DNA of 64,000 nt from Gammaproteobacteria bacterium (GTDB lineage Bacteria > Pseudomonadota > Gammaproteobacteria > QZLD01): positions 101,936 through 165,935 of the forward strand of contig JAWSVB010000022.1 in NCBI GenBank assembly GCA_033852135.1, in the 5' to 3' direction. Of the stretch, positions 7,899 through 59,320 are shown in pieces. The translations under genes and the position numbers were made by a program. The notes under the pieces were generated by a model. The model was not told where the DNA came from. It saw nothing but the letters and a program-made list of their open reading frames with translations, and did not search any database. Numbering within the stretch: position 1 is the first letter of the stretch; the number at the start of each line of letters is the position of its first letter.

Positions 7899-7903
7899 GT
7901 TAT

Positions 7904-42100: not shown

Positions 42101-42686
42101 TAAAAAAGCGTTACGCAAATATGGATTTGATCAAAAATGGCTCCAAGTAGTTAAAGAAAGCCTGTTGAATGTAATTGTGTGTGACCTTGATGGTAATGGA
42201 TTAAGCCTAGCTGCAATCGATGATCAAGATAGAGTTAATGAGATGGAGTTTCTTTTAAAGCACGACAGAGTATCCTCCATCAATCTAAACACATTACTAA
42301 ATAAGTTTGAAAAATATAATCGCCGTGAACGTCCACTATCGTTTACTAAAATAAATGGACTTATTAAAGGTTTCGTTGATTTAACGTTTAGGCATAATAA
42401 TAAGTACTATATTGTAGATTATAAGACTAACCACTTAGGAAGTGACCTCTCTGCATATAACAATGATGAGCTGCAGCAAGAGATAAGAAAGCATGACTAT
42501 GATCTGCAATACTTAATTTACACGGCTGCTTTGCATAGGTATCTACAAACTATTGATCCAGATTACTCATACGAAAATAATTTTGGCGGGGTTTACTATT
42601 TATTCATTCGCGGCATTAGTATCGCTAAGAGTGGAGGGGTGTATTTTGATAAACCTCCGCAAGATCTAATCGATGAATTATTCTAA
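39180..42686 (+). CDS. recB: Exodeoxyribonuclease V beta subunit (helicase-nuclease)
   Basis: 'LIEASAGTGKTYTIAALYLRVL' (helicase motif I, same as E. coli 'LIEASAGTGKT'). C-terminal PD-(D/E)xK nuclease 'GFVDLTFRHNNKYYIVDYKTN'. First ATG at 39180 (the listed ORF starts at a TTG at 39174). Confidence 0.92.
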   Translation: MLMNKLDLLTFPLEGRNLIEASAGTGKTYTIAALYLRVLIEQRCHPQQILVVTFTKAATHELRERIRELIKQALKYLQQLELKELKANEQETEDIVKQILAKYPQDTLIEIRQHLQDSIIAMDESAIFTIHGFVQRMLAENAFESGNLFDMQLIEDDSKFLQGACNDYWRKLQTSLDNADLDLLTQNWGTPEQLKYEVASILRRSDLAIIPERVTYAAVKREFKELYIHGQRLWNDAAEAISGKIAESLNSGHCKKNYKPELFQLATEELDIFFNSKECSLDIPNNINYYSQSHIAKNILKKYVDQTPEHPFYSICEQLLEQSCLLKSNFKIKMLLDAVDCCRTIFSQLKQDNKVISYDDILHDMQDMLQGKSGVQIATAIRDKYPIAMIDEFQDTDPVQYQVFSKIYPENSNMLMIGDPKQAIYSFRGADIFTYLEAKQSTVSTNQYTLDTNWRSASLLVNAVNTLFENTADPFIFSGIDFNPVKASKNADKTPLKFSGKKKPPLTIWHINITEENLGKSPKGFIKKELAKLDVAHSTANEIANLLQPHNKVKIGDEAIQPADITVLIRDRFQAELIINALAKNGLSCAYQGRDSVFATEQAYEMNIILHALANPNDDSLLVAALTTNIIGKTSDQIVKLQNDSNSWENLSKQVIEFNHMWQSGHFIQMIYQFMHTMQIPAGCLQKSDGERLLTNLLHLIELLQHATKTTHGVNGLINWYQEQLLDTSSSEEQLLRLESDSNLINITTIHRSKGLQYPIVFAPFLWETRSQANCDIVFHKDNKIIRDIGSNDLENNKTIARREELAENIRLLYVALTRAVHKCYISWGKIAGADNSAIGYLLKSGIELKEQQDIDIKENLINLSLKGDKSIEVAQLPIESIFAQQNIELEPNLICRKMVRSIDTTYSVSSFTSLAATVLHLHDNHIKVPVDENKSLESVFGFPKGAKAGLFFHYLFENIDFKQPDSETTDLLIKKALRKYGFDQKWLQVVKESLLNVIVCDLDGNGLSLAAIDDQDRVNEMEFLLKHDRVSSINLNTLLNKFEKYNRRERPLSFTKINGLIKGFVDLTFRHNNKYYIVDYKTNHLGSDLSAYNNDELQQEIRKHDYDLQYLIYTAALHRYLQTIDPDYSYENNFGGVYYLFIRGISIAKSGGVYFDKPPQDLIDELF

Positions 42687-42974
42687 TATTAGGCAGTTAA
42701 AGTAATAATTTTAGAAGTAAGTCTTGGTTCGCAAAATAATTGAGTACCTCTTAGCTATTTTGTCAAAAAAAATTCTAAGTGGGAAAAAATAAACTATAAT
42801 TTAAATTACATACTAAGCCGATTGTAGTCAAATGCGGTGATTACTGGCTCTAGTATTAATCATGCGGTAGTTATGCGCCATTAAATAGGTCTGTTTGTGT
42901 AAAGACAAGGTTTTGCTGTGTAAAAAATAATTACACAGCATGTATTCTAGTTTTTATGGTTGGGGTAAGGCTAG

Positions 42975-45900
42975 GTGGATAGAAAAGCAAATACTATTAA
43001 GGGTGATATATCCAGATTATTTCTGTTTATATCTGCAGTAATATCGGTCTCCATCATCTCTATTACTTATTACAGCATAAGTATGTCTGTTGAAGAGCAT
43101 GTTATCAATGACTTGCAAACCATGTCTAAAGCCAAGGCAGATTTAATTGAGTCTGAATTAAAGCACGGGGTTGATATAGCAGCTCACATTACATCAGGTA
43201 TCCAGTTACGTAAGCATATGCTGGATCTGCAAAAAAATTGGGAAGACCAAGAGCATATAAAATCAGTTGCAAAAGAGTTGGAAAAAGAGATTCATGCGAG
43301 TACACAACCATCTGTAGATATAGCATGGATCGATATTTATGATACCAACTCAATGCTTATTTCAGAGATAAGCCGTCAAGAAAAAGAAAGGGAAGGGCAT
43401 ACATACACTCCAAAAGATTTTTTTGGAATAAAAGAGCCAAAGGTTGGAATGTATTATTTAAGTGATGGGGAGGTGTTTCATAATATATTCGTACCAATTT
43501 TTCATCCTAAAAGAGATTTTCAGATAGTTGGGTATGCTGTATTTGCAATGTATTGCTCTTGTTTGTCCAGTGGGTTTGATAGTTTTTTGAATATTGGTTT
43601 ATCTGGTGAATTTATTGTTGCAAAAAAAGATGGCTTAAGTGCAACTATTTTATCAACTTTAAAAGGTAAGGATACCGAACCTCTTAGCTTGAAAATTCCT
43701 TTAGACTCACCTGAAGCAAATCTTTTACGCCCTGCATTTTTGGGTAATGCTGGTGATTTGATTGATATAGATTATAGGGGTAAAAAAGTCATTGCCGCCT
43801 ATAGATATATTTCTGCATACGATATAGGTGTAGTCGCTAAGATAGATAGTGATGAGGTGTTAAGCCCATTAAATCAGTTGTTTGTAAAAATAACTGTAAT
43901 TGTCCTAATAGCTATTTTTATAGCTTATTACTTTATAGCCAGGAAGTTAGATAAATCATTATTATCAGTTCATGAGCTAGAACATGGGGCTAGAAGATTT
44001 GCCAATGGTGATTTGAATTATCGAATACCAATACTAGGAAATACAGAACTGAGCAGACTAACTCGTGTTTTTAATAATATGGCAGAAAAGCTTGCTCAAG
44101 TAACATCCTCTAGAGAAGAGTTAAATGAGCAAGTCAATAAGCAGCTAAAAATAGAACAACAGCTAAATGCAGAAAGAGCAAAGCTTGAGGCGATATTTGA
44201 ATCCACAGATGATTGTATTATGGTTTGGGATAAAGATTATGTTCATATTTATGTAAATCAAGCAGCATCTGAAGTTATTGGTTTAACTAAAAGAAATATT
44301 CTTGGCAAAACAATTGCTGAAGTGTATAGCTCACGTCCAGAGTTTGCTAAACACTGGGTAGACAGAATAGATAAAGTATTTACTGATGGTGAAATACTAA
44401 AAGTAAATGATAAGTTTGAAGTTAAAGGGGAGATGATTTTTAGTGAATCAGTAATATCCCCTATTGTTAATGATAAAGATGAAATTTTTGCTGTAGGGGT
44501 TGTTTATAGAGATGTAACAAATAGAAAGTACGCCGAAGACTCTGCATATTCATCATGGCAAATGCTGCAACAGATTCTTAATAGTGTACCAGTGCGTGTT
44601 TTTTGGAAAGATACTAAAGGTGTTTTTTTAGGTTCAAATATGAACTTTGCTAAAGATGCAGGCCTTGATAGCCCAGAAGATATTATGGGCAAAACTGATA
44701 AAGATATGGTTTGGTCCGATTTTGCAGATTCATACCGTGCTGATGATCAATCTATAATTGAAACAGGAAAAAGCTTATTAGATTTTGAAGAAAAATTTGT
44801 TGGTACCGGCGGTAAACCGCAGGTTGTAAAAACTAGTAAGGTGCCGTTATTAAGAAGCGATGGATCAATCTATGGGATTTTAGGGTGCTATGAAGATGTT
44901 ACAGAAAGACATGAATTTGTAGAAAAACTTAAAAATGCCCAGCGTGAGGCAGAGATAGCCAATAAGGCAAAAAGTGACTTTTTAGCGTCAATGAGCCATG
45001 AGGTAAGGACCCCTATCAACGCTATAATCGGAATGGCAGATGTTCTGCTTAGTAGTAAGATAACTTCAGAGCACAAAGAGTATGTAAGGATTTTAAAGGC
45101 TGCAGGTGAAAACCTATCTCACCTGGTAGGTAATATTTTAGATTTTACTAAGCTAGAAGCCGGTAAGTTAGAACAGAATAACTGTGAATTCTCACTTGGT
45201 GATGTATTAAGTGATACTGTGAATTTAGTTATTCTCAAAACGCATGAAAAGAATTTATATTTAAACCTGCATGTTGATGATGAAGTTCAGCTTCAGCTAT
45301 ATGGAGATTCGGGAAAATTAAGACAAATTTTACTCAACCTATTAAATAATGCGGCTAAGTTTACTTATGGCGGTGGAATCGATCTAAGGGTTTCTGAGTG
45401 GCGCGATGCCACTCCTGGTAAATATACTCTACTGTTTGAGGTTAAGGATACAGGCAGGGGTATACCAAAGGATAGACTAGAAAGTATTTTTGACAGGTTT
45501 GTACAGGTTAAAGAGTTTGAAGGGCAGGTTGGAACAGGTCTTGGGCTCTCTATATGTAAAGAGCTAACGCAGATGCTTGATGGTGATATTTGGGTAGAAA
45601 GTGATGTAGATGAAGGGAGTAAATTTAGTTTCACAGCAACCTTTAAGCCTTTAGATGCTATGAAAAATGGAAAATACCATTCATCCAGTAAGCTTTCACT
45701 TAGAGGGACTAAAGCTCAGGTTGTATGTGATAACAAAGGGCTGACTGAGCAGATGCAACATACTCTTAAAGAGTGGAAGATAAGCAGTAATGGCTTTACA
45801 GAGTTTAGTGAAACTGTATTTGCAGAGGAAAGTGATTTTATTATTCTCATGCCGGGTGAAGCTATGGCTGCAGCGATAGTTGATAAATATAAGAAAATAG

Positions 45901-46508
45901 CAAAAAAGAAAGATAATCTAATTGATAAAATTATTGGAAAAACGATTTTGATTCATCAAAATCTAAACGACGATATTATGGGGAAATTAGCAGGTTTTGG
46001 CGTTAACTATAAGTTGACACAACCAGTAGTTAGAAAAGAGCTCTATGGTTGTTTAAACACCATTTATAACTTAAATGGGAATGCAAAGGCAGTTGTGAAA
46101 AAAGAGGCAAAATTTTCTTGGTATGATCCAGCTAAGATAAATATATTAATAGCTGAAGATGACCCAATAACCAAAAAGGTGATGCGTCTAGCATTTCAAA
46201 ACTTAGGGTATCGTTTAGATATAGCAAATAACGGTGTAGAAGTATTAGAGCAATTAAAAAAAGATACATACGATATTATATTTATGGATACTAATATGCC
46301 TGATCTAGATGGAAATGAAACTACGAAAAAAATACGGGAACTAGAAAAAAGTAGTGATACCAGAATCCCAATTGTGGCAGTTACTGCTCGTGTATTTGAT
46401 GATGACCGTAAAGAGGCATTCGACTCCGGAATAGATTGGTTCTTACCCAAGCCAGTGATTGTAGAGCAGATGGTCGAGGCAATTAATAAGCTAGTTAAGC
46501 TTGGCTGA
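42975..46508 (+). CDS. Hybrid sensor histidine kinase (TM, Cache-like periplasmic domain, TM, HAMP, 2x PAS, HisKA, HATPase, pseudo-receiver, C-terminal receiver)
   Basis: GTG start. H-box 'SMSHEVRTPINAIIGMADVL'. 'NNAAKF...DTGRGI...GTGLGLSI'. C-terminal receiver 'ILIAEDDPITKKV...IIFMDTNMPDLDG...AVTA...LPKP'. Confidence 0.85.
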   Translation: MDRKANTIKGDISRLFLFISAVISVSIISITYYSISMSVEEHVINDLQTMSKAKADLIESELKHGVDIAAHITSGIQLRKHMLDLQKNWEDQEHIKSVAKELEKEIHASTQPSVDIAWIDIYDTNSMLISEISRQEKEREGHTYTPKDFFGIKEPKVGMYYLSDGEVFHNIFVPIFHPKRDFQIVGYAVFAMYCSCLSSGFDSFLNIGLSGEFIVAKKDGLSATILSTLKGKDTEPLSLKIPLDSPEANLLRPAFLGNAGDLIDIDYRGKKVIAAYRYISAYDIGVVAKIDSDEVLSPLNQLFVKITVIVLIAIFIAYYFIARKLDKSLLSVHELEHGARRFANGDLNYRIPILGNTELSRLTRVFNNMAEKLAQVTSSREELNEQVNKQLKIEQQLNAERAKLEAIFESTDDCIMVWDKDYVHIYVNQAASEVIGLTKRNILGKTIAEVYSSRPEFAKHWVDRIDKVFTDGEILKVNDKFEVKGEMIFSESVISPIVNDKDEIFAVGVVYRDVTNRKYAEDSAYSSWQMLQQILNSVPVRVFWKDTKGVFLGSNMNFAKDAGLDSPEDIMGKTDKDMVWSDFADSYRADDQSIIETGKSLLDFEEKFVGTGGKPQVVKTSKVPLLRSDGSIYGILGCYEDVTERHEFVEKLKNAQREAEIANKAKSDFLASMSHEVRTPINAIIGMADVLLSSKITSEHKEYVRILKAAGENLSHLVGNILDFTKLEAGKLEQNNCEFSLGDVLSDTVNLVILKTHEKNLYLNLHVDDEVQLQLYGDSGKLRQILLNLLNNAAKFTYGGGIDLRVSEWRDATPGKYTLLFEVKDTGRGIPKDRLESIFDRFVQVKEFEGQVGTGLGLSICKELTQMLDGDIWVESDVDEGSKFSFTATFKPLDAMKNGKYHSSSKLSLRGTKAQVVCDNKGLTEQMQHTLKEWKISSNGFTEFSETVFAEESDFIILMPGEAMAAAIVDKYKKIAKKKDNLIDKIIGKTILIHQNLNDDIMGKLAGFGVNYKLTQPVVRKELYGCLNTIYNLNGNAKAVVKKEAKFSWYDPAKINILIAEDDPITKKVMRLAFQNLGYRLDIANNGVEVLEQLKKDTYDIIFMDTNMPDLDGNETTKKIRELEKSSDTRIPIVAVTARVFDDDRKEAFDSGIDWFLPKPVIVEQMVEAINKLVKLG

Positions 46509-46585: not shown

Positions 46586-48253
46586 TTAAAACTCGGTCCT
46601 GTTTCTTCCATTTTCTTTAGCGTCATATAACTTAGCATCAGCCTTTGAAATACAGGCTCGAGAGTTACAAGTAGAGTCGCAGAGAGAGCACCCTAGGCTT
46701 ATAGTTATATTCACCTCTTTCTCAAAAATAATAACTGGAGTACTTTCAATTTTAGCTCTGACTCTTTCTGCAAATTGGACTGCACCATCAATTTCGCAGT
46801 CAGGTAATATAATAATGAATTCTTCACCACCATATCTGCATACAACATCAGCACCTCTAGCTAAATCGCTTATGATATTAGCAACTTGCTTTAGAGCGAT
46901 GTTTCCAGCTTCATGACCATATGAATCGTTAAAACTCTTAAAGTGATCTATATCTGCCATAACCAAGCAGATAGATTCAAACTGTCGATTTCTGCGATTA
47001 TTTTTTTGGAGCATATTTCCAAGAACAGATTGGAAGTGTCCAAAATTATATAATCCAGTTAAGTAATCATGTGTTGCAATTTGTTGCAGCTTGACCACCT
47101 TCTTGCTTAATTTGCTATTAAGGTCTTCAATCTGTTCTTTTTGAGATTCAATCTCTTCGTACATTCTGGTGTTTTCAAGAGCTATCCCAAGGTAAGAAGC
47201 CACTGCTTCAAGCATCTCTTTATCGCTATAATTGAGGTGTGCTGATTTTTTTATCGAACCAAGCCAAACCACACCAATAGCTTGCTCTTTCTGTCTGAGG
47301 GGGATGAATATAGTACTTTTTATCCCTTTGATTTGATTTAAAGCATTTTTATCATGCTCAGCCATTGGTAAAGACTTAACTTTTGAAATATCAGGGATAT
47401 AAATAAGAGAGTCATTTTCAAAGCAGGATGACATTGCACCATTATTTGATGAAAGGCTACAAAGATTATTTTCAGCCCATATCTTTAGTTGTGCTATTTG
47501 ATGTTCATAGTCAGGAGTGATAGTGCTCCAATGAGTAGGAATTAAGAACCCTTTTTCATTGGTGAAAATACCTCCAAAATGAAAACCATAATGGGAGATA
47601 AGTTCTGATAAAACAGTATCGAATAGCTCTTGGCAGCAATTAATTCCACCAAGTCGATTAATAAGGGTAATTACTTGTTGGTGCTTTTCACCAGATTCAT
47701 CTAAGGCATCTTTTAGTCGAATAAAAGATTCATATTTATAGCATGAGTATAAATATGGAGTGATCGTTGTGATGCTTTCTTTGATCTTGTTTATTTCAGC
47801 GGAGGTAAAGTTACTTTCATGAGATATTGCCTGGAATGTGCCGACAACCTCATTGTTGAAGATAATTGGTATTGCAACCATTTGTTTTATAGACCAAGCA
47901 TCAAATATTGTTTTTACATGCGGATCATATTTTCCGATATCTTCTTTGTTTAATTTGATTGAAGATCTTTTATGGATGGCATCAATGTCAGGTGTATTTC
48001 TGTTTATATCAATATGGTAGCCCATTATTGATCTTTCTAATGCTGATAGATCGCCTTTAAGGCTTAAAGACTCAACATTAAGATATTCTTTCTCATAATT
48101 AAGGAAATAAAAAACGCAACTCTCGCATGCAGTCTGCTCGATTATAATTCTTTTTGCTAATTCAAGAGATCGTTCAAGGTTTACTTCTCCCGCAAAGGTT
48201 TCATATAGATATTTCTTTGTAACTTTTATTGTCAAAATATCACCTAGAATCAT
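46586..48253 (-). CDS. GAF-domain diguanylate cyclase (tandem GAF + GGDEF with intact GGEEF site)
   Basis: 'ATHDYLTGLYNFGHFQ...MADIDHFKSFNDSYGHEAGNIAL...RYGGEEFIIILPD'. Confidence 0.85.
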   Translation of the reverse strand: MILGDILTIKVTKKYLYETFAGEVNLERSLELAKRIIIEQTACESCVFYFLNYEKEYLNVESLSLKGDLSALERSIMGYHIDINRNTPDIDAIHKRSSIKLNKEDIGKYDPHVKTIFDAWSIKQMVAIPIIFNNEVVGTFQAISHESNFTSAEINKIKESITTITPYLYSCYKYESFIRLKDALDESGEKHQQVITLINRLGGINCCQELFDTVLSELISHYGFHFGGIFTNEKGFLIPTHWSTITPDYEHQIAQLKIWAENNLCSLSSNNGAMSSCFENDSLIYIPDISKVKSLPMAEHDKNALNQIKGIKSTIFIPLRQKEQAIGVVWLGSIKKSAHLNYSDKEMLEAVASYLGIALENTRMYEEIESQKEQIEDLNSKLSKKVVKLQQIATHDYLTGLYNFGHFQSVLGNMLQKNNRRNRQFESICLVMADIDHFKSFNDSYGHEAGNIALKQVANIISDLARGADVVCRYGGEEFIIILPDCEIDGAVQFAERVRAKIESTPVIIFEKEVNITISLGCSLCDSTCNSRACISKADAKLYDAKENGRNRTEF

Positions 48254-49868: not shown

Positions 49869-50039
49869 ATTCTTGTTTATTTTCCCAATATCTGTGTTGC
49901 AACTCTGCCTTAGGTTGGTCATTTACTAGAAGTAAACTCCCACCCTAAGTGCTCGTTGCGCCTTGATCTTGAAAAAATATCCTGCGAATTAAAGTTCTTT
50001 ATTATTGTTTTTTACTTCACCATTTAATGGTGTTTCCTA

Positions 50040-50420
50040 ATCCACGATTCCGGTTGGTTTACACAGCCATTATCCTTCCTACGTAGAATAACGTCATATA
50101 TGGACTTGATCCGGGATCCAGCAAACGAACGTTTGCCGCGCAAAGCGCGAATCGCACATGAATTTCAAAAAACTAATTTCCCCCGGACAGCAGTGAGTTA
50201 AAGCAGGGACATGGATAACGCATGTGCCAAAGATACTAAAGAAAAGTATCTCGCCTATTGGTGCGAGAACCAAGTAAACAAAAAAATGTTTCTCGTTCCC
50301 ACGGTCTCCGTGGGAATGCATATTTCGTCTAGTGATAACCATGGTGGCAAGCCTATCTGTTTTCCCGATCTAATAACTAAAACATTTTCCACACGTGTGG
50401 AAAATTCATTCCTGATCGTA
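50040..50420. other. GC-rich, hairpin-dense non-coding island of unknown nature (possible structured ncRNA or degraded foreign element)
   Basis: No convincing ORF. At least five perfect or near-perfect stem-loops: CGCGCAAAGCGCG, GATACT-aaagaaa-AGTATC, CTCGC-ctattggtg-GCGAG, TTCCCACGG-tct-CCGTGGGAA, TTTTCCACACGTGTGGAAAA. Local GC is visibly higher than the flanks. Confidence 0.4.
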
Positions 50421-50643
50421 CCTGTGTAGTCTTAAAACAAACCAAACGGCATTTTAAAATGTGACAATATACCCATATTTGTCATGCGCTGTTTGGTAAA
50501 AGTGACAAAAAAAGTAACTCATTGTGATAACTGGTAATTGTTGACAGACAAAAGGGGGTAAAAGTCGTAAATTGGTTGGCACATATATTGATGACATATT
50601 TATTTATATAGTAAAAATCTCCGGAATAAAATTGGGGGCAGTT

Positions 50644-51099
50644 ATGAGTATGGATATGCAATACAGTACAAGTGTTAACTGTAAGAAAGAGAAAAAACTT
50701 GAAGCTGATTTTCAGCTTGCTTGCTGCTATCAATATGGGATAGACGGTGATGTATCCTTAAGTAAAGCCTTCTCACGTTATATGAAATGTGCCATGAGTG
50801 GTTACGCTCCAGCACAGAATGCCCTTGGTTTTTTATACCTTTCTGGAGAAGGGGTTGTAAAGGATGAGAAGCTTGCATTTAAATGGTTTCGATCAGCTGC
50901 AGATCAGAACTATCCTGCTGCGCTATTGAATATCAGTTATATGTATATCGATGGGGTTGGAACTGATATAGATATTCAGAAAGGACTAAACTGCATTTAT
51001 GCTGCAGCAAAAGGCGGGTGTGATGATGCCCGTATGACGCTTGAAAATAAAATTGCAGAGTGCATGAATATCGATATTGAAGCTATTTTTCATGGTTGA
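50644..51099 (+). CDS. Sel1-like repeat (TPR-family) protein
   Basis: ATG at 50644 after GGGGGCAGTT. Repeats 'AQNALGFLYLSGEGVVKDEKLAFKWFRSAADQNYPAALLNISYMY' are the Sel1 consensus. Confidence 0.7.
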   Translation: MSMDMQYSTSVNCKKEKKLEADFQLACCYQYGIDGDVSLSKAFSRYMKCAMSGYAPAQNALGFLYLSGEGVVKDEKLAFKWFRSAADQNYPAALLNISYMYIDGVGTDIDIQKGLNCIYAAAKGGCDDARMTLENKIAECMNIDIEAIFHG

Positions 51100-51117: not shown

Positions 51118-51717
51118 TTAGCTTTCAGCGCTTGTGCCAAAGCAAATGGTCTCGTATCTCTCAACGTAAATATTATCTGACCAATAATTATGTGGCAGAC
51201 CTGCTTTCAACAATAGGTTTTGTAGGAACTCCTCTTTTTCTGGCAGTGACTCCCAGACAGATGGTAGAAATGTCCCACGCTTGAATCCTTCAGAAAGAAT
51301 TAGTCCATCAACTCCTGGCCTTATTTGTTCCAATAAATTTGCTCTATCTTTAAATATTATTGGCTCTGGTGGAGTAAGAATCGATATATCTATTTCAAGT
51401 TGGTTTAGCTCTTCTGCCTTTAGTTGTGGGAACCGTGGGTCGTTAAAAGCTGATGAGTAGGCGTTTTCTGCGATATCTATTACAAGTGGATGGTGGGCAA
51501 TAAGGGAACCGATACACCCTCTTAGTTGCTTATTTTTATGTAGAGTTACAAAAGTTGCTAATTGTTCTGTTAGTTTATCGTTATAACTATCTAAATTAAC
51601 CTGAAATGGTTTTCCAAGTTCTAACCCATTTTCTATAGATTGTTTTGCAAGATTAAGTAGCCTGCTTTTTTCATCATCAGTGTAATTATTCAAAGGTATA
51701 TGCTCCATATCCAACAA
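51118..51717 (-). CDS. AMMECR1 domain protein (AmmeMemoRadiSam system protein A)
   Basis: 'LRGCIGSL' is the hallmark AMMECR1 motif; 199 aa. Overlaps the upstream MEMO1-like gene by ~30 nt. Confidence 0.85.
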   Translation of the reverse strand: MLDMEHIPLNNYTDDEKSRLLNLAKQSIENGLELGKPFQVNLDSYNDKLTEQLATFVTLHKNKQLRGCIGSLIAHHPLVIDIAENAYSSAFNDPRFPQLKAEELNQLEIDISILTPPEPIIFKDRANLLEQIRPGVDGLILSEGFKRGTFLPSVWESLPEKEEFLQNLLLKAGLPHNYWSDNIYVERYETICFGTSAES

Positions 51718-52474
51718 CGCTATCTTTAGTTCCTGATGTATCGCCCGAGTTGTTTATTTGAATTTTTTTTGCAGTCCAATTTCGCTGCCTTGCTACTTCT
51801 AATAACACATTTATTGCATGGCATCCGCAGGCTTCTTTTCCGGCTATAGCTGATTTGTTTAAAGATAATATTTTTTCACTGGTGCAATTGTCTATTTCAA
51901 CTGCTTCATCATAACTGTGAAAATGGCTTAGATCAGAACTTACGATTGTTATCGTATTTTTATCATCAATTATTCTGGATAGTGCGTTTGCAGCACTAAC
52001 ATAGTCGGTATCACTTATTAGGATAGGAATTATTGAGAACTCTTTATTGGTGATACTTTGTAAAAATGGCAATTGGGTTTCTAGGCTATGTTCGTGTAGA
52101 TGAGCTGCATCATTAAAGTTGAAATCTGGTATGGAGCATAATTGATTTATTGTTTGCTTATCTAATGGGATATTTCCTAGGGGGGTATTAAAAAAATCTG
52201 CATGACTTAATGCCATACCGTTAAATCCAACCCTGTGCGTTGGGCCGAGTAATAAAACTCTAGAAAATGGAATGTCATTAAGTATTGAGTATACAGAGGC
52301 TGCAACTTCCCCTGAATAAATGTAGCCAGCGTGTGGTGCGATGATGGCTTTAGGGTGGGGTGGATTAGTATCTTTGTTGGTTCTTTGTAGTAGCTTTTTA
52401 ATGAGTAACTCAAGTTCTAATTTTGAGCTTGGATAAAAGCTACCAGATACTGCAGGAACTCTAATTATTGGCAT
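51686..52474 (-). CDS. MEMO1 family protein (AmmeMemoRadiSam system protein B)
   Basis: 'IIAPHAGYIYSGEVAASVYS' and 'LLLGPTH' are MEMO1/extradiol-dioxygenase-class-III-like motifs; 262 aa. Confidence 0.82.
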   Translation of the reverse strand: MPIIRVPAVSGSFYPSSKLELELLIKKLLQRTNKDTNPPHPKAIIAPHAGYIYSGEVAASVYSILNDIPFSRVLLLGPTHRVGFNGMALSHADFFNTPLGNIPLDKQTINQLCSIPDFNFNDAAHLHEHSLETQLPFLQSITNKEFSIIPILISDTDYVSAANALSRIIDDKNTITIVSSDLSHFHSYDEAVEIDNCTSEKILSLNKSAIAGKEACGCHAINVLLEVARQRNWTAKKIQINNSGDTSGTKDSVVGYGAYTFE

Positions 52475-52637
52475 AATATATATGTCCTAGCTGAATTTTT
52501 CGTATTTAAGAAGTATAGTTTTATTATTGAGGTATTCAAATAATGCCCTCAGTATGGACAACTGGTGAGATAAAAAATAAATTCGCACTATTCTTATATG
52601 AATGGATTCATAGTTTTATGTGTCAGGAGGATTGTTT

Positions 52638-53693
52638 GTGCAGACTAAATATTGGCATAAAAGGGATGATGGTAAAGTTTGTTGTGATCTTTGTCCGCGA
52701 TATTGTGTATTAAAAACTGGTCAACGTGGGTTTTGCTTTATACGGGAGAATATAAACTCGGAAATGGTTTTAACCTCTTATGGTAAATCAACAGGGTTCT
52801 GTATCGATCCAGTAGAGAAAAAACCACTGAATCATTTTTTCCCAGGAACTCCAGTTTTATCCTTTGGGACAGCCGGTTGTAATTTGGGTTGTAAGTTTTG
52901 TCAAAATTGGGATATCAGTAAATCGCATGAAGAATTGATTCTTTCAGCTAAAGCATCTCCTGAGGAGATTGCTCACGTTGCAAAAGGGTATAAGTGTAAG
53001 AGTGTAGCTTTTACTTATAATGATCCGGTGATATTTCATGAGTATGCTGTAGATACTGCAATAGCTTGTAGGGAGAATGGAGTAAAGGCAATAGCCGTTA
53101 CCGCAGGGTATATTAACCCTGAACCACGTAAAGATTTTTTTGCTGCTATGGATGCTGCAAATATCGATCTTAAGGGGTTTACAGATGAATTTTATAAAAA
53201 CTATACAAACGCTCACTTAGCAAATGTGCTCGATACTTTGCAATATGTAAAACATGAAACCAATACTTGGTTAGAAATTACTAACTTATTGATACCCGAT
53301 GCCAATGATTCTTCAGCTGAAATAGAGCAAATGACAAAATGGATATATGAAAATTTGGGGGGGGATGTGCCGCTTCATTTTTCTGCATTTCACCCTGCAT
53401 TTCAAATGATGGACGGCCAGCGTACTCCACCATCCACCTTGTTTAAAGCAAGGGATATTGCGTTAAAGAATGGGATTAAATATGTATATACAGGCAATAT
53501 AGCTGATACAGCTAGTACCAGTACATATTGTGATAATTGTGGCGAGTTGTTAATAGAAAGAGAGTCTTATGAGATAAGTAAATGGTCTATGATGTCTGGG
53601 GCAAGATGTTCAAAATGTAATAATGAAATTCCAGGGTATTTTGAAGATAGACCAGGAAAGTGGGGGAATAAAAGCGCGCCGATTAAGTTTTGA
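52638..53693 (+). CDS. AmmeMemoRadiSam system radical SAM enzyme (PFL-activase-like)
   Basis: GTG at 52638 sits 7 nt after a perfect AGGAGG (the listed ORF starts at an upstream GTG at 52620). CxxxCxxC 'CNLGCKFC'. N-terminal Cys cluster 'CCDLCPRYC' and C-terminal 'CDNCG...CSKC'. Confidence 0.85.
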   Translation: MQTKYWHKRDDGKVCCDLCPRYCVLKTGQRGFCFIRENINSEMVLTSYGKSTGFCIDPVEKKPLNHFFPGTPVLSFGTAGCNLGCKFCQNWDISKSHEELILSAKASPEEIAHVAKGYKCKSVAFTYNDPVIFHEYAVDTAIACRENGVKAIAVTAGYINPEPRKDFFAAMDAANIDLKGFTDEFYKNYTNAHLANVLDTLQYVKHETNTWLEITNLLIPDANDSSAEIEQMTKWIYENLGGDVPLHFSAFHPAFQMMDGQRTPPSTLFKARDIALKNGIKYVYTGNIADTASTSTYCDNCGELLIERESYEISKWSMMSGARCSKCNNEIPGYFEDRPGKWGNKSAPIKF

Positions 53694-53794
53694 ATTTCAA
53701 GGTGATAAATATTGATTAATATTTAAGCCGTTAGCACTGAAAATTATTTAAACTAATAATTATCGGAGTGTGAACGGCTTAAATGATATTTCGC

Positions 53795-54013
53795 TTAAAC
53801 TGACTCTACAGATTCAACTTCAGGTACCATCTCTTTTACAACTCTTTCAACACCGTTTTTAAGTGTTACGTTAGCCATAGGGCAGCATGAACAAGCGCCT
53901 TGAAGTCTAACTTTTACAATATTGCCATCAATTTCAACCAGCTCAACATCACCGCCGTCTGCTTGTAGGCTTGGTCTAATTTTCTCTAAAGCTTCTTCAA
54001 CTCTTTCTTTCAT
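53795..54013 (-). CDS. NifU C-terminal-domain (Nfu-type) Fe-S cluster carrier protein
   Basis: 72 aa; 'ADGGDVELVEIDGNIVKVRLQGACSCCPMA' carries the Nfu CxxC motif. Confidence 0.8.
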   Translation of the reverse strand: MKERVEEALEKIRPSLQADGGDVELVEIDGNIVKVRLQGACSCCPMANVTLKNGVERVVKEMVPEVESVESV

Positions 54014-55549: not shown

Positions 55550-56191
55550 ATGATTAAAGTTCTATTGGTAGATGATCATCAGCTGGTCAGATCAGGGATT
55601 AATAGAATTCTTCAAGATGCTGAAGGTATTAGCGTAATTGGAGAAGCTAGTAGTGGCGAAGAAGCAATTACTATTACCAGGGAGATTGGCCCTGATGTAG
55701 TGTTGATGGATGTTAGTATGCCAGGTATAGGTGGTATTGAAGCAACCAGAAAATTACTACGAGTTAATGAGAAAATAAAAATTATTGCATTGACCGTTTA
55801 TGCAGGTGAACCATACCCAACTAGTCTTTTAGAAGCAGGAGCATCAGGTTACTTGACCAAAGGGTGTGACGTTTCTGAAATTGTTAATGCAATTAATACC
55901 GTGATGCGTGGAGAGCGCTACCTTGGTAAAGATGTTGCGCAGCAAATGGCTCTTTCCGCACTTCCTGGTGGTAAAAAGAATCCTTTTGATAAGCTGTCTC
56001 AGCGTGAAGTACAAGTTATGCTGATGATAACTCAAGGAAAGAAGCTGCAGGATATCTCTGATAAGCTGTGCTTAAGTCCAAAAACAGTTAGCACCTATCG
56101 TTACAGGATTTATGAAAAGCTTGATGTAGATAATGATGTTGAGCTTACCCATTTGGCTATTCGTCATGGAATGGTCGATAACATTCAGTAA
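55550..56191 (+). CDS. uvrY: GacA/UvrY-type response regulator (receiver + LuxR HTH)
   Basis: 'IKVLLVDDHQLVRSG...VVLMDVSMPG'. C-terminal HTH 'LSQREVQVMLMITQGKKLQDISDKLCLSPKTVSTYRYRIYEKL'. Position immediately upstream of uvrC. Confidence 0.9.
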   Translation: MIKVLLVDDHQLVRSGINRILQDAEGISVIGEASSGEEAITITREIGPDVVLMDVSMPGIGGIEATRKLLRVNEKIKIIALTVYAGEPYPTSLLEAGASGYLTKGCDVSEIVNAINTVMRGERYLGKDVAQQMALSALPGGKKNPFDKLSQREVQVMLMITQGKKLQDISDKLCLSPKTVSTYRYRIYEKLDVDNDVELTHLAIRHGMVDNIQ

Positions 56192-56450
56192 CCAGCCATT
56201 TTTTCTATCCCAATAATGTTTTCTATGGCTTGCCTCTTTGGTGGTTAGGCAGTGTTTTGCCTATAGTATTGGTATCTTAATGCTTCTTTGTTTAGGTTGT
56301 GCGTTAGAAATTAATGCTTTATTAGCCTGCAAAAATTTTTAATCTATTTGAAAAGAATAATGGCTGTTCCTAAAAATTTGGAATGCAGCGTTTTGTCCGC
56401 TATTTTTTCGGAGTATAGTATTAAAATTATTGAAATAAGGTAGTAGATAA

Positions 56451-58262
56451 TTGTTCGATTCTAAAGAGTTTCTTAATCGCGTAACCGAGCTTCCTGGCGT
56501 ATACCGTATGCTTGATGCAAAAGGTAAGGTTATCTATGTAGGTAAGGCAAAAAACCTTAAGAAACGTCTTTCAAGCTATTTTTCTAATGCAAATATCCCG
56601 ATAAAAACTAGATCTCTGGTAGCTAATCTTGCCGATATTAAAGTTATTACAACTAATACCGAGAATGAAGCTTTAATTCTTGAGAACAGACTCATTAAAG
56701 AGCTTAGGCCGCGTTATAATATCTTGCTTCGAGATGACAAAAGTTATCCTTATATCCATTTAACTGCACATGAATTTCCACGTTTAGTTTATCACCGGGG
56801 TGGTAAAAAAGGCGGGGGGCAATTCTTTGGTCCTTTTTCTAGTCCAAAGGCAGTTTCAGAAACATTGAGACATCTGCAAAGGATTTTTAAAAACAGGCAG
56901 TGTTCAGACTCATATTTTGCTAACCGTTCCCGCCCATGTTTACAGTTTCAAATTAATCGCTGCAGCGCTCCTTGCGTTGGAAATATCGATAAAGAGAAGT
57001 ATCAAGTAAATATTGATAATGCAGTTTTATTTCTACAGGGAAAGAATAATGAGTTAATTGATAAGCTGGTTGTTGAGATGGAGCAGGCTTCAAAAAACCT
57101 AGATTTCGAGGCTGCAGCTCATGCTAGAGATACAATATCCTTGCTGCGCCACGTTTTAGAAAAACAGGTTGTTGAGGGGGAGAAAGGTGATTTAGATGTT
57201 ATTGCTCTTGAGCGTACTCCAGAGCTGTCTGTAGTTGAGGTGTTTTTTATCAGAGCTGGTCAAAATCAAGGTAATAGATCATTTACCCCAAAGGTACCAC
57301 CAGAAACTGATGATGCAGAGTTGATGGCATCATTTATTTCGCAGTTTTATCTAGAAAAAGATGTTCCTGCTGAGATTGTTGTCTCCCATATACCAGAAGA
57401 CAAAGGATTGCTTGAGTCTGTTCTTTCAGAAACGCGAGGGAAAGATGTTTCAATTGTTACTAATGTGAGGGGGCAGAGAAGGGAGTGGTTGGATTTCACT
57501 GTTAAGAATGCAAGAAATGCCTTAGATAGCCATATAAATAGTAAAGCAAATATGGAAGCAAGGTACCAGTCACTGGTTGAAGAGCTTGGGTTAGATAGAT
57601 CCCCTAGCAGGATAGAGTGTTTTGATATAAGTCATTCACTGGGAGAAGATACTGTAGCGTCTTGTGTTGTTTTTGATTCAAGTGGCCCTTTGAATAGTGC
57701 TTATCGAAAATTTAATATCGAGGGTATAACTGCTGGTGATGATTACGCTGCGATGGAGCAGGCTATACGTAGAAGATATTCAAGAGTAGTAAAAGAGAAT
57801 GGAGTGTTACCTGATATTTTACTTATTGATGGTGGAAAAGGGCAGTTAGGTAGGGCTATTGAGGTTATTGATGAACTGAATATTAAAGATGTTCTAATTG
57901 TTGGAATAGCGAAAGGCGAGGGGCGTAGGCCAGGATTGGAGAAAATTATTATTCCCAGTAAAAACAGAGAATTTATGCTACCATCCTCTACGCTGGCTTT
58001 ACATTTATTGCAGCATGTTAGGGATGAGGCGCATAGATTTGCACTAGCAGGTCATAGAAATCGAATCGGTAAGAAGAAGTCTCGCTCAGTTCTAGAGGAT
58101 ATTCCTGGCTTAGGCCCTAAAAGGCGCCAAATGTTGTTAAAACAGTTTGGTGGAATACAAGGGCTTTCTAAGGCTGGAGTGGCAGATATTCAAAAAATTA
58201 AAGGTGTTAGTAAGGCGATGGCTCAGGAAATATATGTAATGTTTCATAGTGAGGTTAAGTGA
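56451..58262 (+). CDS. uvrC: Excinuclease ABC subunit C
   Basis: GIY-YIG 'PGVYRMLDAKGKVIYVGKAKNLKKRLSSYF' (near-identical to E. coli). C-terminal HhH. TTG start at 56451. Confidence 0.93.
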   Translation: MFDSKEFLNRVTELPGVYRMLDAKGKVIYVGKAKNLKKRLSSYFSNANIPIKTRSLVANLADIKVITTNTENEALILENRLIKELRPRYNILLRDDKSYPYIHLTAHEFPRLVYHRGGKKGGGQFFGPFSSPKAVSETLRHLQRIFKNRQCSDSYFANRSRPCLQFQINRCSAPCVGNIDKEKYQVNIDNAVLFLQGKNNELIDKLVVEMEQASKNLDFEAAAHARDTISLLRHVLEKQVVEGEKGDLDVIALERTPELSVVEVFFIRAGQNQGNRSFTPKVPPETDDAELMASFISQFYLEKDVPAEIVVSHIPEDKGLLESVLSETRGKDVSIVTNVRGQRREWLDFTVKNARNALDSHINSKANMEARYQSLVEELGLDRSPSRIECFDISHSLGEDTVASCVVFDSSGPLNSAYRKFNIEGITAGDDYAAMEQAIRRRYSRVVKENGVLPDILLIDGGKGQLGRAIEVIDELNIKDVLIVGIAKGEGRRPGLEKIIIPSKNREFMLPSSTLALHLLQHVRDEAHRFALAGHRNRIGKKKSRSVLEDIPGLGPKRRQMLLKQFGGIQGLSKAGVADIQKIKGVSKAMAQEIYVMFHSEVK

Positions 58263-58861
58263 TGCAGTGGAATATACCAAATACACTGACAGTTATTAGG
58301 ATAGTATTAATACCGTTTCTGATGGTGAGTTTTTTTGCTCTTCCACATCCCTGGTCTAATTGGGTCAGCTTTGGGATTTTTTGGTTTGCTTCGGTTACGG
58401 ATTGGTTTGATGGGTATTTAGCGCGTAAATTGAATCAGACATCTCCATTTGGAGCATTTCTTGATCCAGTTGCTGATAAGTTAATGGTTGCTGTAGCATT
58501 GATCTGTGTAGTGATTCAGTCACCTAGTGTATATTTTGCTATTCCAGCAGCGATTATTATCGGTAGAGAGATCACCATATCAGCTTTAAGAGAGTGGATG
58601 GCTGGTTTGGGAATGAGCAATAAGGTTGCAGTTTCTATCCTGGGTAAAATTAAAACCTCTGTGCAGATGCTTTCAATAATGTTTCTTCTTTTTAACTACC
58701 AGCTATTTTCTCTTACTCAGGAACAGGTCTATATAGTAGGTACTGTACTATTATATATCGCAGCAGTGTTAACTATTGTATCAATGCTCTCATATTTGAG
58801 AGCAGCTTTTGCAATCGATTTTACAAAAACTGAAACTGATGGCGATATATCAGGTAAATGA
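58262..58861 (+). CDS. pgsA: CDP-diacylglycerol--glycerol-3-phosphate 3-phosphatidyltransferase
   Basis: 'MQWNIPNTLTVIRIVLIPF' is parallel to E. coli 'MQFNIPTLLTLFRVILIPF'. CDP-alcohol motif 'DWFDGYLAR...GAFLDPVADK'. ATG overlaps the uvrC stop. Confidence 0.92.
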   Translation: MQWNIPNTLTVIRIVLIPFLMVSFFALPHPWSNWVSFGIFWFASVTDWFDGYLARKLNQTSPFGAFLDPVADKLMVAVALICVVIQSPSVYFAIPAAIIIGREITISALREWMAGLGMSNKVAVSILGKIKTSVQMLSIMFLLFNYQLFSLTQEQVYIVGTVLLYIAAVLTIVSMLSYLRAAFAIDFTKTETDGDISGK

Positions 58862-58996
58862 AAGATTCTGAGTAAACAAACAGTTGTAAAACTTTTGTAA
58901 CAATAGGGTTGCTTCAAAGGAAAAAATTATAAAATAATGGTGTTGAAAAGCTTGACACAAAGGCGATTCTGACTAAAATACACCACATGAATTGAC

Positions 58997-59072
<76 letters not shown>

Positions 59073-59153
59073 ATATTCAAAGGCCCTGGTAAATCCAGGG
59101 TTTTTTAGTATAGAAGTTTATTTAAGGTTTATACTGAAACTGCACCAACTCAA

Positions 59154-59227
59154 GGCTAGGTAGCAAAGTGGTTATGCAGCGGCCTGCAAAGCCGTAGACG
59201 CCGGTTCGATTCCGGCTCTAGCCTCCA
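59154..59227 (+). tRNA. tRNA-Cys (anticodon GCA)
   Basis: GGCTAGGTAGCAAAGTGG...CCTGCAAAG...GGTTCGATTCCGGCTCTAGCCTCCA. Confidence 0.9.
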
Positions 59228-59232
59228 AATTC

Positions 59233-59320
59233 GGGGATGTGGTGGAATTGGTAGACACGAGAGACTTAAAATCTCTTGGCTATTGCGGCCGTGCCGGTTC
59301 GATTCCGGCCATCCCCACCA
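59233..59320 (+). tRNA. tRNA-Leu (anticodon TAA), class II with long variable arm
   Basis: GGGGATGTGGTGGAATTGGTAGACAC...CTTAAAAT...GGTTCGATTCCGGCCATCCCCACCA. Confidence 0.9.

What the first reader, a model, noticed from the sequence alone, without database searches (positions are those of the whole stretch)
51118..54013. Complete AmmeMemoRadiSam trio (AMMECR1 + MEMO1 + radical SAM) with an adjacent Nfu Fe-S carrier
The AMMECR1 gene (with 'LRGCIGSL') overlaps the MEMO1 gene ('APHAGYIYSG'). The pair is divergently paired with a radical SAM enzyme that has 'CNLGCKFC' plus extra N- and C-terminal Cys clusters. This three-gene association is conserved from archaea to bacteria, and two members have human orthologs, yet its substrate and chemistry are unknown. 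A NifU-C-terminal/Nfu gene ('GACSCCPMA') lies 100 nt downstream on the opposite strand and could feed clusters to the radical SAM partner. A Sel1-repeat protein converges on the other side.
Basis: partly seen in the sequence, partly recalled or inferred. Interest (0 to 1): 0.7.

Follow-up and report, generated by a model that had tools for sequence, protein, structure and literature searches.

The report
Known AMMECR1–Memo–radical SAM gene trio
This is a complete, textbook copy of a widespread three-gene system (AMMECR1-like, Memo-like and a radical SAM enzyme) whose job is still unknown; it is already catalogued under that name, and the neighbouring Nfu iron-sulfur gene is a bystander, not a fourth member.

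Summary
All four ORFs are at the stated coordinates, and the three core proteins pass the curated NCBIfam models far above cutoff: TIGR04335 at 210 bits against 99, TIGR04336 at 250 against 26, and TIGR04337 at 595 against 220. PflA proper fails at 56 bits against 232.

The layout (ammA and memoB on the minus strand, diverging from the rSAM gene) recurs in 41 of 60 fully flanked homologous loci from many phyla. B–A fusions occur in 7 of those loci. At least 120 protein clusters, mostly Planctomycetota where named, encode a single rSAM–AMMECR1–Memo polypeptide, so the three act as one unit. All signature residues are intact.

The Nfu link is not supported:
- Nfu is next to the rSAM only inside this narrow clade (1 of 80 diverse loci).
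- It stays with purT when a 705-aa gene separates it from the rSAM in one relative.
- It is conserved like a housekeeping gene.

Sel1 is missing even from a 99%-identical strain.

The association has been in the literature since 2007, and I found no functional characterisation. This is an ordinary new instance of a known system of unknown function.

The parts
51118..51717 (-). ammA: AmmeMemoRadiSam system protein A (AMMECR1 family). The ORF is 199 aa from the TTG at 51717; the likely real start is the ATG at 51708, giving 196 aa. The RGCxG motif (R66-G67-C68-G70) and the DxRF motif (D93-R95-F96) are both intact.
   Evidence: TIGR04335 scores 209.9 bits against a cutoff of 99. PF01871 has E=9e-50. 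The motifs are at least 97% conserved in 48 homologs and match the active-site signatures described in PMC2034487. PDB relatives are PH0010 (1VAJ), ST0229 (1WSC) and MM0484 (1ZQ7).
51686..52474 (-). memoB: AmmeMemoRadiSam system protein B (Memo family, extradiol-dioxygenase-like fold), 262 aa. Its 3' end overlaps the ammA start by 23-32 nt, which suggests translational coupling in a memoB-ammA operon. The metal-site residues H48, H80, D181, H184 and C216 are present.
   Evidence: TIGR04336 scores 249.9 bits against a cutoff of 26. PF01875 has E=2e-55. H48, H80, D181 and H184 are at least 98% conserved and C216 is 93% conserved in 59 homologs. H48 and H80 align to human MEMO1 His49 and His81, which together with Cys244 coordinate metal in PDB 7L5C (PMC9477392).
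52475..52619 (.). AT-rich divergent intergenic region of 145 nt, presumed to hold promoters for memoB-ammA (minus strand) and for the rSAM gene (plus strand). An AGTATAGTTT block is conserved across the clade.
   Evidence: Sigma-70-like matches are TTGAAT-16-TATACT on the minus strand (52539..52512) and TGGACA-17-TAAATT on the plus strand (52555..52583). The number of such matches is not above the shuffle expectation. The conserved block shows in the 5-sequence alignment. This is inference only.
52620..53693 (+). AmmeMemoRadiSam system radical SAM enzyme. The ORF is 357 aa from the GTG at 52620; the likely start is the GTG at 52638, which follows an AGGAGG Shine-Dalgarno sequence and gives 351 aa. 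It has a CX3CX2C SAM cluster (C87/C91/C94), an N-terminal CX2CX3CX9C motif (C22/25/29/39) and a C-terminal CX2C-X22-CX2C motif (C304/307/330/333).
53795..54013 (-). Neighbour, not part of the system: a stand-alone NifU C-terminal (Nfu-type) domain protein of 72 aa with CxxC at C41/C44. It is convergent with the rSAM gene and divergent from purT.
   Evidence: PF01106 scores 105 bits. Nfu is adjacent to the rSAM in only 1 of 80 diverse loci. It stays with purT when separated from the rSAM in L082.
50572..51099 (+). Neighbour, not part of the system: a small Sel1-repeat protein convergent with ammA. The likely start is internal, giving about 150 aa.
   Evidence: PF08238 has E=1.4e-18. A homolog is present in L084/L085 but absent from L081 (a 99%-identical strain), L001 and L082, and from all 80 diverse loci.

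Best explanation
The locus is a genuine, complete AmmeMemoRadiSam system. A memoB-ammA operon with overlapping, translationally coupled genes is transcribed divergently from the gene for a PflA-like radical SAM enzyme.

Shown here:
- All three proteins belong to the curated families.
- All catalytic signatures are intact.
- The gene arrangement is the commonest one in the 80 related loci sampled.
- In other lineages the three proteins are fused (B-A, or rSAM-A-B), so they work together as one physical and functional unit.

Inferred mechanism:
- The rSAM enzyme uses its CX3CX2C [4Fe-4S] cluster and SAM to make a 5'-deoxyadenosyl radical.
- It is assisted by a fully Cys-ligated auxiliary cluster at the N-terminal four-Cys motif, probably for electron transfer, and by a zinc-ribbon or rubredoxin-like C-terminal four-Cys site.
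- The radical starts an oxygen-independent modification of a substrate that is not encoded in the locus.
- The rSAM is extremely conserved (about 60% identity across phyla) and no other neighbour is conserved. The substrate is therefore most likely a universal cellular molecule. A nucleotide or RNA base was the 2007 proposal of Balaji and Aravind (read here). A nucleotide base or an isoprenoid is how I recall the 2019 paper of Burroughs and co-authors, which I could not read.
- AMMECR1 would hold the substrate, or a covalent intermediate, in its cleft at the invariant Cys68.
- Memo's His/His/Asp/His/Cys metal centre would carry out a follow-up redox or ring-chemistry step.

Nfu and Sel1 are unrelated neighbours.

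Confidence by layer: identity as the trio about 0.97; the three acting as one unit about 0.9; the specific mechanism about 0.35. The overall figure of 0.45 is weighted toward the mechanistic claim.
For: - Family membership: the HMM scores are.
- Arrangement: memoB is divergent upstream of the rSAM gene in 41 of 60 fully flanked loci. AmmA is also present in 40 of them. There are 7 B-A fusions and 1 triple fusion.
- Fusions: at least 120 clusters (at 90% identity) of rSAM-AMMECR1-Memo proteins of about 1070 aa were listed. The source-named ones are Planctomycetota, and they include the isolate Fuerstiella marisgermanici. The same residues are invariant in the fused forms.
- Invariant Cys, His and Asp residues.
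- No other gene is conserved beside the trio. Apart from the trio itself, a spurious antisense cluster and a generic regulator cluster, no gene cluster occurs in more than 5 of 80 loci.
- rSAM identity is 57-63% across Gammaproteobacteria, Gemmatimonadota, Acidobacteriota, Planctomycetota, Nitrospirota and a Bathyarchaeota MAG.
- AMMECR1 is the strongest Pfam marker of anaerobes, present in 50.7% of anaerobes and 3.4% of aerobes (PMC13386939). This fits O2-independent radical chemistry.
- The prior neighbourhood and fusion inference, and the catalytic-Cys proposal, are in PMC2034487.
Against: - No substrate, product or activity is known. I found no experimental paper in six literature searches.
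- 17 of 60 fully flanked loci carry the rSAM without A or B within 6 kb. Linkage is therefore not obligatory, or A and B lie elsewhere in those genomes.
- Eukaryotes keep AMMECR1 and Memo without the rSAM (my own knowledge). A and B can therefore work without it.
- The closest structural and HMM relatives of the rSAM are protein-directed activases. This favours the rival in which the substrate is a protein.
- AF2 of a natural triple fusion gave pTM 0.59, with a disordered 30-residue linker between the rSAM and the A-B part. No defined rSAM/A-B interface was obtained.
- The metal content of the extra Cys motifs is inferred, not shown.
Confidence: 0.45

Rival explanations
1. The rSAM is a protein-directed activase. 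Like PFL-AE acting on PFL, it would abstract a hydrogen from, or otherwise modify, a residue of AmmA or MemoB. A candidate site is within the invariant RGCxG strand of AMMECR1. This would create a radical or modified cofactor that the A/B pair then uses catalytically.
Against: AMMECR1 and Memo function in aerobic eukaryotes that lack the rSAM (my own knowledge). No RVxG[FWY]-type glycyl-radical motif is present; the conserved Gly residues sit in a beta-strand according to PMC2034487. 17 of 60 loci have the rSAM with no adjacent A or B. The family-specific four-Cys extensions are absent from PFL-AE; only 221 of 357 residues align.
Confidence: 0.2
2. One reading: the adjacent Nfu gene is a dedicated Fe-S cluster donor for this multi-cluster rSAM, which would make the system four genes.
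For: Nfu lies 101 nt from the rSAM stop codon. The adjacency holds in the window, L081, L001 and L084. Nfu-type carriers are known to supply clusters to radical SAM enzymes such as LipA and MiaB (my own knowledge). The rSAM probably binds two or three metal clusters.
Against: Nfu is absent from 79 of 80 diverse loci within 6 kb. In L082 a 705-aa gene separates the rSAM from Nfu, while Nfu stays adjacent to and divergent from purT. Nfu is 91-96% identical across the clade, like purT (88-95%) and uvrY (91-97%), whereas the rSAM is 78-92% and A and B are 64-88%. The genes are convergent, so they are separate transcription units.
Confidence: 0.07
3. The rSAM is an ordinary pyruvate formate-lyase (or other glycyl radical enzyme) activase, and its position next to AMMECR1 and Memo is coincidental.
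For: JGI automatic annotation calls many homologs 'pyruvate formate lyase activating enzyme'. The fold is similar to PFL-AE.
Against: TIGR02493 scores 56.4 bits against a cutoff of 231.75, and every other activase model is far below its cutoff, while TIGR04337 scores 594.6 against 220. None of the ORFs of 700 aa or more in the window is a glycyl radical enzyme. The fusions with A and B and the recurrent adjacency exclude coincidence.
Confidence: 0.01
4. The trio is a RiPP or natural-product maturation cassette acting on a locally encoded peptide.
For: Related rSAM domains occur in peptide-processing systems (PMC7159879). The rSAM carries extra Cys clusters, as many peptide maturases do.
Confidence: 0.03

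Closest known systems
AmmeMemoRadiSam system (NCBIfam/TIGRFAMs TIGR04335, TIGR04336, TIGR04337), described as the AMMECR1 / radical SAM / ring-opening-dioxygenase neighbourhood by Balaji & Aravind 2007 and as 'Memo-Ammecr1 systems' by Burroughs et al. 2019
   Same: All three models are passed far above cutoff. The gene order and orientation are the commonest ones in the 80 loci sampled. All signature residues are present. NCBI and JGI already give homologs exactly this name.
   Different: Nothing of substance differs. The instance sits in a low-GC (about 37%) uncultured gammaproteobacterial lineage, and the proteins are separate rather than fused.
Pyruvate formate-lyase activating enzyme and other glycyl-radical-enzyme activases (PDB 3C8F; TIGR02493 and TIGR02494)
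   Different: Identity is only 16%, and the HMM scores are far below the family cutoffs. The trio rSAM has an N-terminal beta-rich domain of about 75 aa with CX2CX3CX9C and a C-terminal part of about 60 aa with CX2C-X22-CX2C, both absent from PFL-AE. There is no glycyl radical enzyme partner in the window.
Human MEMO1 (PDB 3BCZ, 7KQ8, 7L5C) and human AMMECR1 / archaeal PH0010 (1VAJ)
   Same: They belong to the same Pfam families. MemoB H48 and H80 align with the MEMO1 metal ligands His49 and His81. AmmA keeps the RGCxG and DxRF motifs.
   Different: Eukaryotes have no rSAM partner. MEMO1 is described as a copper- or iron-binding signalling and redox protein, and no enzymatic activity has been established for either family.
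Nfu / NfuA-type Fe-S cluster carriers (NifU C-terminal domain, PF01106)
   Same: The 72-aa neighbour is a full NifU domain with the CxxC pair.
   Different: It is not linked to the trio outside this clade and it co-segregates with purT. It is most likely a general housekeeping carrier.

Membership tests
AmmeMemoRadiSam system | Protein A matches TIGR04335 above the curated cutoff | tested here: met
   209.9 bits against a cutoff of 99, E=1.7e-62, covering model positions 2-174 of 175
AmmeMemoRadiSam system | Protein B matches TIGR04336 above the curated cutoff | tested here: met
   249.9 bits against a cutoff of 26, E=2.5e-74, full model length
AmmeMemoRadiSam system | The radical SAM enzyme matches TIGR04337 above the curated cutoff and carries CX3CX2C | tested here: met
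   594.6 bits against a cutoff of 220, E=4.8e-179, model positions 1-348 of 349. C87/C91/C94 are invariant.
AmmeMemoRadiSam system | The three genes are co-located | tested here: met
   The three genes are contiguous at 51118-53693. A and B overlap, and the rSAM gene is divergent across a 145-nt spacer. The same layout occurs in 41 of 60 fully flanked homologous loci.
AmmeMemoRadiSam system | AMMECR1 active-site motifs RGChG and DxRa (Balaji & Aravind 2007) | tested here: met
   R66-G67-C68-I69-G70 and D93-P94-R95-F96 are present, and the motif residues R66, G67, C68, G70, D93, R95 and F96 are at least 97% conserved in 48 homologs.
AmmeMemoRadiSam system | Memo metal-site residues (His, His, Asp, His, Cys) | tested here: met
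   H48, H80, D181 and H184 are at least 98% conserved and C216 is 93% conserved. H48 and H80 align to MEMO1 His49 and His81.
AmmeMemoRadiSam system | The three proteins form a complex or act in one pathway | not testable with these tools
   Supported indirectly by natural B-A and rSAM-A-B fusions. AF2 of a triple fusion gave pTM 0.59 with a flexible rSAM linker, so no interface was resolved.
PFL-activating enzyme / glycyl-radical-enzyme activases | HMM score above the curated cutoff for an activase equivalog | tested here: not met
   TIGR02493 scores 56.4 against 231.75, TIGR02494 47.2 against 174.35, NrdG2 36.6 against 131.15, and all others are lower.
PFL-activating enzyme / glycyl-radical-enzyme activases | Cognate glycyl radical enzyme encoded nearby | tested here: not met
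   All ORFs of 700 aa or more in the window are sensor kinases, AcrB, RecC or RecB. None is a glycyl radical enzyme. The rest of the genome was not available.
PFL-activating enzyme / glycyl-radical-enzyme activases | PFL-AE-like partial TIM-barrel fold | tested here: met
Dedicated Fe-S carrier of the trio (Nfu as fourth member) | Conserved genomic linkage of a NifU-domain gene to the trio | tested here: not met
   Linkage is seen in 1 of 80 diverse loci. In L082 Nfu is uncoupled from the rSAM but remains with purT.
RiPP / peptide-maturation cassette | Conserved precursor peptide, transporter or protease neighbour | tested here: not met
   Apart from the trio itself, a spurious antisense cluster and a generic regulator cluster, no gene cluster occurs in more than 5 of 80 loci.

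The most novel reading that the evidence does not exclude
The most novel reading my evidence does not exclude: the PflA-like rSAM is an activase that installs a radical or covalent modification on the invariant RGCxG segment of AMMECR1, or on Memo. That would make AMMECR1/Memo a new class of radical or modified-cofactor enzyme in anaerobes, with the eukaryotic (human disease-linked) orthologs as rSAM-independent descendants. This reading applies to the whole family and is not special to this window.
Probability: 0.18. Interest if true: 0.8.

Novelty: already known. Interest (0 to 1): 0.25.

Why it matters
The trio's chemistry is a real open problem. It is ancient and extremely conserved, it is the strongest Pfam marker of anaerobes, and two of its members have human orthologs linked to disease (AMMECR1 in the AMME contiguous-deletion syndrome, MEMO1 in cancer cell motility). 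This window adds nothing beyond one more canonical instance in an uncultured gammaproteobacterium. Better experimental entry points exist in cultured carriers such as Hahella, Methylobacter, Methylomonas and Fuerstiella. The useful outcomes of this check are negative. Nfu and Sel1 should not be counted as system components. The comparative data (fusions, invariant four-Cys motifs, lack of any other conserved neighbour) narrow the hypotheses to either a universal small-molecule or RNA substrate, or self-modification of A or B.

Tried and rejected
- **Literature.** Six full-text searches (AmmeMemoRadiSam; AMMECR1 with Memo and radical SAM; AMMECR1 with MEMO1; AMMECR1 with radical; the TIGR accession numbers; Memo with radical SAM and dioxygenase) found no functional study. 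The key 2019 JBC paper by Burroughs and co-authors is not held, so its proposals are cited from memory and from a secondary mention.
- **Plasmid origin.** There was no megablast match.
- **Neighbourhood clustering.** The only apparently conserved extra neighbour (cluster 1, 15 loci) turned out to be spurious antisense ORFs overlapping the rSAM gene in high-GC genomes. It was rejected.
- **Regulatory RNA or riboswitch in 49.8-54.2 kb.** Only a chance miRNA-model hit far below gathering score was found.
- **Promoter scan.** Hits were not above shuffle expectation. A TTGA-N5-TCAA palindrome in the divergent spacer has the wrong spacing for FNR/CRP and is not conserved in L082 or L084. It was rejected as an FNR box.
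- **AF2 of a natural triple fusion, to obtain complex geometry.** The result was pTM 0.59 with a disordered linker. The tools do not expose coordinates, so I could not measure Cys-cluster geometry or inter-domain contacts.
- **PflA proper.** Rejected on HMM scores.
Full report

Yes. The six-frame ORF list shows:
- a 199-aa ORF at 51118-51717 (-) containing LRGCIGSL;
- a 262-aa ORF at 51686-52474 (-) containing APHAGYIYSG;
- a 357-aa ORF at 52620-53693 (+) containing CNLGCKFC;
- a 72-aa ORF at 53795-54013 (-) containing GACSCCPMA;
- a 175-aa ORF at 50572-51099 (+).

The A and B genes overlap by 32 nt from the TTG start. From the more probable ATG at 51708 the overlap is 23 nt. The 99%-identical database protein P0121 is annotated from that ATG, with 196 aa.

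The rSAM ORF opens at the GTG at 52620. An AGGAGG lies at 52625-52630, with a GTG at 52638 seven nucleotides downstream. The nearest homologs are 351 aa. The true start is therefore probably 52638.

The rSAM and Nfu genes are convergent with a 101-nt gap. Sel1 and AmmA are convergent with an 18-nt gap.

**2. What are the proteins?**

Against NCBIfam:

| Protein | Model | Bits | Cutoff |
|---|---|---|---|
| AmmA | TIGR04335 | 209.9 | 99 |
| MemoB | TIGR04336 | 249.9 | 26 |
| rSAM | TIGR04337 | 594.6 | 220 |
| rSAM | PflA TIGR02493 | 56.4 | 231.75 |

The first three matches cover essentially the full models. Every other activase model also falls far below its cutoff for the rSAM.

Pfam agrees: AMMECR1, Memo, Radical_SAM, NifU and Sel1.

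Against the PDB by sequence:
- AmmA matches the archaeal AMMECR1 homologs PH0010, ST0229 and MM0484.
- MemoB matches human MEMO1.
- The rSAM matches only PFL-AE, weakly.

**3. Residue-level integrity**

I extracted homologs from 80 related genomic loci and aligned them.

*rSAM.* Invariant in 81 of 81 sequences:
- the SAM-cluster triad C87/C91/C94;
- an N-terminal CX2CX3CX9C motif (C22, C25, C29, C39);
- a C-terminal CX2C-X22-CX2C motif (C304, C307, C330, C333);
- H253 and H258.

C150 is conserved in 99%.

*AmmA.* It keeps R66-G67-C68-x-G70 and D93-x-R95-F96. These are the two signatures that Balaji and Aravind mapped to the cleft, with the Cys thiol exposed (PMC2034487).

*MemoB.* It keeps H48, H80, D181 and H184 (at least 98% conserved) and C216 (93%). 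H48 and H80 align with MEMO1 His49 and His81. Together with Cys244, those residues coordinate the metal in PDB 7L5C (PMC9477392).

**4. Structure of the rSAM**

Only the core barrel aligns. About 75 N-terminal residues, which form a beta-rich module carrying the first four-Cys motif, have no counterpart in PFL-AE. The same is true of about 60 C-terminal residues, which form a beta-hairpin or ribbon carrying the second four-Cys motif.

I infer, but cannot show, that the N-terminal motif binds a fully ligated auxiliary [4Fe-4S] cluster. I likewise infer that the C-terminal motif is a zinc-ribbon or rubredoxin-like site.

**5. Comparative genomics of the trio**

A scan of one genome per species found at least 596 species with a relative of the rSAM. 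The best 80 loci were fetched. They span Gammaproteobacteria, Alphaproteobacteria, Gemmatimonadota, Acidobacteriota, Planctomycetota, Nitrospirota, Chloroflexota and a Bathyarchaeota MAG. All are 57-63% identical to the query except one close relative at 92%.

Profile searches of the six-frame translations gave the following for the 60 loci with at least 1.7 kb on both sides:
- 41 have memoB divergent immediately upstream of the rSAM gene, exactly as in the window.
- 40 also have ammA.
- 7 have B and A in a single reading frame.
- 1 (L043) has rSAM, A and B in one ORF.
- 17 have the rSAM with no A or B within 6 kb.

A protein-database search with the L043 ORF returned at least 120 clusters of rSAM-AMMECR1-Memo proteins of about 1070 aa. 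Those with source names are Planctomycetota, including the isolate Fuerstiella marisgermanici. The same catalytic residues are invariant in them.

This is strong 'Rosetta stone' evidence that the three act together. It extends what was already inferred in 2007 from neighbourhoods and A-B fusions.

Clustering all neighbouring ORFs found nothing else conserved. The one apparent extra cluster was antisense noise in high-GC genomes.

AF2 of a natural triple fusion gave high confidence for the A-middle-B part. A disordered linker of about 30 residues follows the rSAM domain, and overall pTM was 0.59. The rSAM seems flexibly tethered. No interface could be derived, and coordinates are not exposed by the tools.

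**6. Nfu and Sel1**

Nfu appears next to the rSAM in only one of the 80 diverse loci. That locus is L001, the syntenic close relative.

Within the narrow clade:
- The window, L081 (98.5-100% identical proteins, so the same species; GCA_041156805.1), L001 and L084 share the order rSAM-Nfu-purT-uvrY.
- In L082 a 705-aa gene lies between the rSAM and Nfu, while Nfu stays next to and divergent from purT.

Identity to the window across the clade:

| Protein | Identity |
|---|---|
| Nfu | 91-96% |
| PurT | 88-95% |
| UvrY | 91-97% |
| rSAM | 78-92% |
| MemoB | 64-88% |
| AmmA | 64-85% |

Nfu therefore behaves as a housekeeping gene of the purT-uvrY-uvrC block, not as a trio component. A general Nfu carrier may well load this rSAM along with many others, but adjacency here is not evidence for that.

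The Sel1 gene has a homolog in L084/L085. It is replaced by an unrelated 135-aa ORF in the same-species strain L081 and in L082, and it is absent from all diverse loci. It is a bystander at a synteny breakpoint.

**7. Regulation**

The 145-nt AT-rich divergent spacer contains sigma-70-like matches in both directions. It also holds a block (AGTATAGTTT) conserved across the clade. Promoter-like hits are no more frequent than in shuffled sequence, so this is only a plausible assignment.

No Rfam element is present.

The rSAM-Nfu spacer has an 8-bp inverted repeat with a long loop, conserved in L001. L084 has a canonical GC-rich bidirectional terminator there instead.

**8. How it probably works**

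Shown: there are three enzymes with intact active sites, they are obligately associated in many lineages, and no substrate gene is co-conserved.

Inferred: the PflA-like rSAM generates a 5'-deoxyadenosyl radical. This initiates an oxygen-independent transformation that the AMMECR1 cleft (Cys68) and the Memo metal centre complete.

Three points suggest a universal cellular substrate:
- the unusually high cross-phylum conservation of the rSAM;
- the absence of any precursor or transport gene;
- the status of AMMECR1 as the top Pfam marker of anaerobes, present in 50.7% of anaerobes and 3.4% of aerobes (PMC13386939).

A nucleotide or RNA base was proposed in 2007. As I recall it, the 2019 paper proposed a nucleotide base or an isoprenoid.

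The main rival is that the rSAM modifies AmmA or MemoB itself. This is suggested by its PFL-AE-like fold and its activase-like HMM neighbours. I put it at about 0.2.

I rate the small-molecule or RNA pathway model at about 0.35-0.45, the Nfu-dedicated model below 0.1, and 'PflA proper' at about 0.01.

**9. Novelty and verdict**

The association was published in 2007, codified as TIGR04335, TIGR04336 and TIGR04337, and revisited in 2019. NCBI and JGI already annotate homologs with the system name.

I found no experimental characterisation in the held library. The 'function unknown' statement therefore stands as far as I can tell.

The window's copy is canonical in every respect. It is a correct identification of an already known, still enigmatic system. 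The Nfu and Sel1 additions are not supported.

Interest for this specific finding is low to moderate (0.25). The family-wide question remains interesting, but this locus does not make it more tractable.

Noticed in passing
window 55550-59320: The gene order uvrY, uvrC, pgsA (CDP-alcohol phosphatidyltransferase, 58259-58861), then tRNA-Gly(gcc), tRNA-Cys(gca) and tRNA-Leu(taa) matches the E. coli block uvrYC-pgsA-glyW-cysT-leuZ (the E. coli order is from memory). It is a deeply conserved gammaproteobacterial synteny block.
   Followed up: no
window 49869-50571: A stretch of about 700 bp between asnS and the Sel1 gene has no convincing ORF. It contains several terminator-like hairpins, including a perfect 11-bp stem at 50294-50318 that is single-copy in the window. 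It coincides with a synteny breakpoint: the same-species strain L081 has a 135-aa ORF, an O-methyltransferase, MipA and aryl-polyene-like ketosynthase and reductase genes beyond ammA instead.
   Followed up: partly
window 1-15165: A dense array of PAS/Cache/HAMP sensor histidine kinases lies together with a MEDS-domain protein (5534-6184), two Peripla_BP_6 solute-binding proteins (7904-10222) and a receiver-HATPase protein (13045-14352). It may be a multi-kinase sensory network of the DcmR/MEDS type.
   Followed up: no
window 35960-46508: recC (35960-39193) and recB (39174-42686) overlap, but they are followed by a hybrid PAS histidine kinase rather than recD.
   Followed up: no
L084/L085 1-2804: In the relative with 79% rSAM identity, an [FeFe]-hydrogenase large subunit and a HydG-like (Radical_SAM + BATS) maturase lie immediately beside the Sel1-trio block. 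At least part of this clade therefore has an anaerobic or fermentative lifestyle, in line with the anaerobe bias of AMMECR1.
   Followed up: no
L043 5905-9186 and proteins P0241-P0360: The listed rSAM-AMMECR1-Memo triple-fusion proteins, which are Planctomycetota where a source names them, carry an extra, confidently folded domain of about 180 aa between AMMECR1 and Memo (residues about 610-800 of P0261, pLDDT above 85). It has no Pfam hit and is absent from the window's separate proteins. It might hold a clue to the substrate.
   Followed up: partly
L044 4091-5341 (-): A Gemmatimonadota chromosome (CP070815) has a second TIGR04337-like rSAM paralog (E=5e-131) next to the first, with no AMMECR1 or Memo gene within 6 kb.
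   Followed up: no
window 24112-28703: This stretch holds an Hpt + HD_5 (HD-GYP-like) protein (24112-25278, -), a eukaryote-type Ser/Thr protein kinase (25428-26294, -), nadC (26682-27527) and a second HD_5 protein (27708-28703). Together with the GGDEF/EAL proteins at 31445-33292 and 46586-48253, it shows a heavy investment in c-di-GMP signalling.
   Followed up: no
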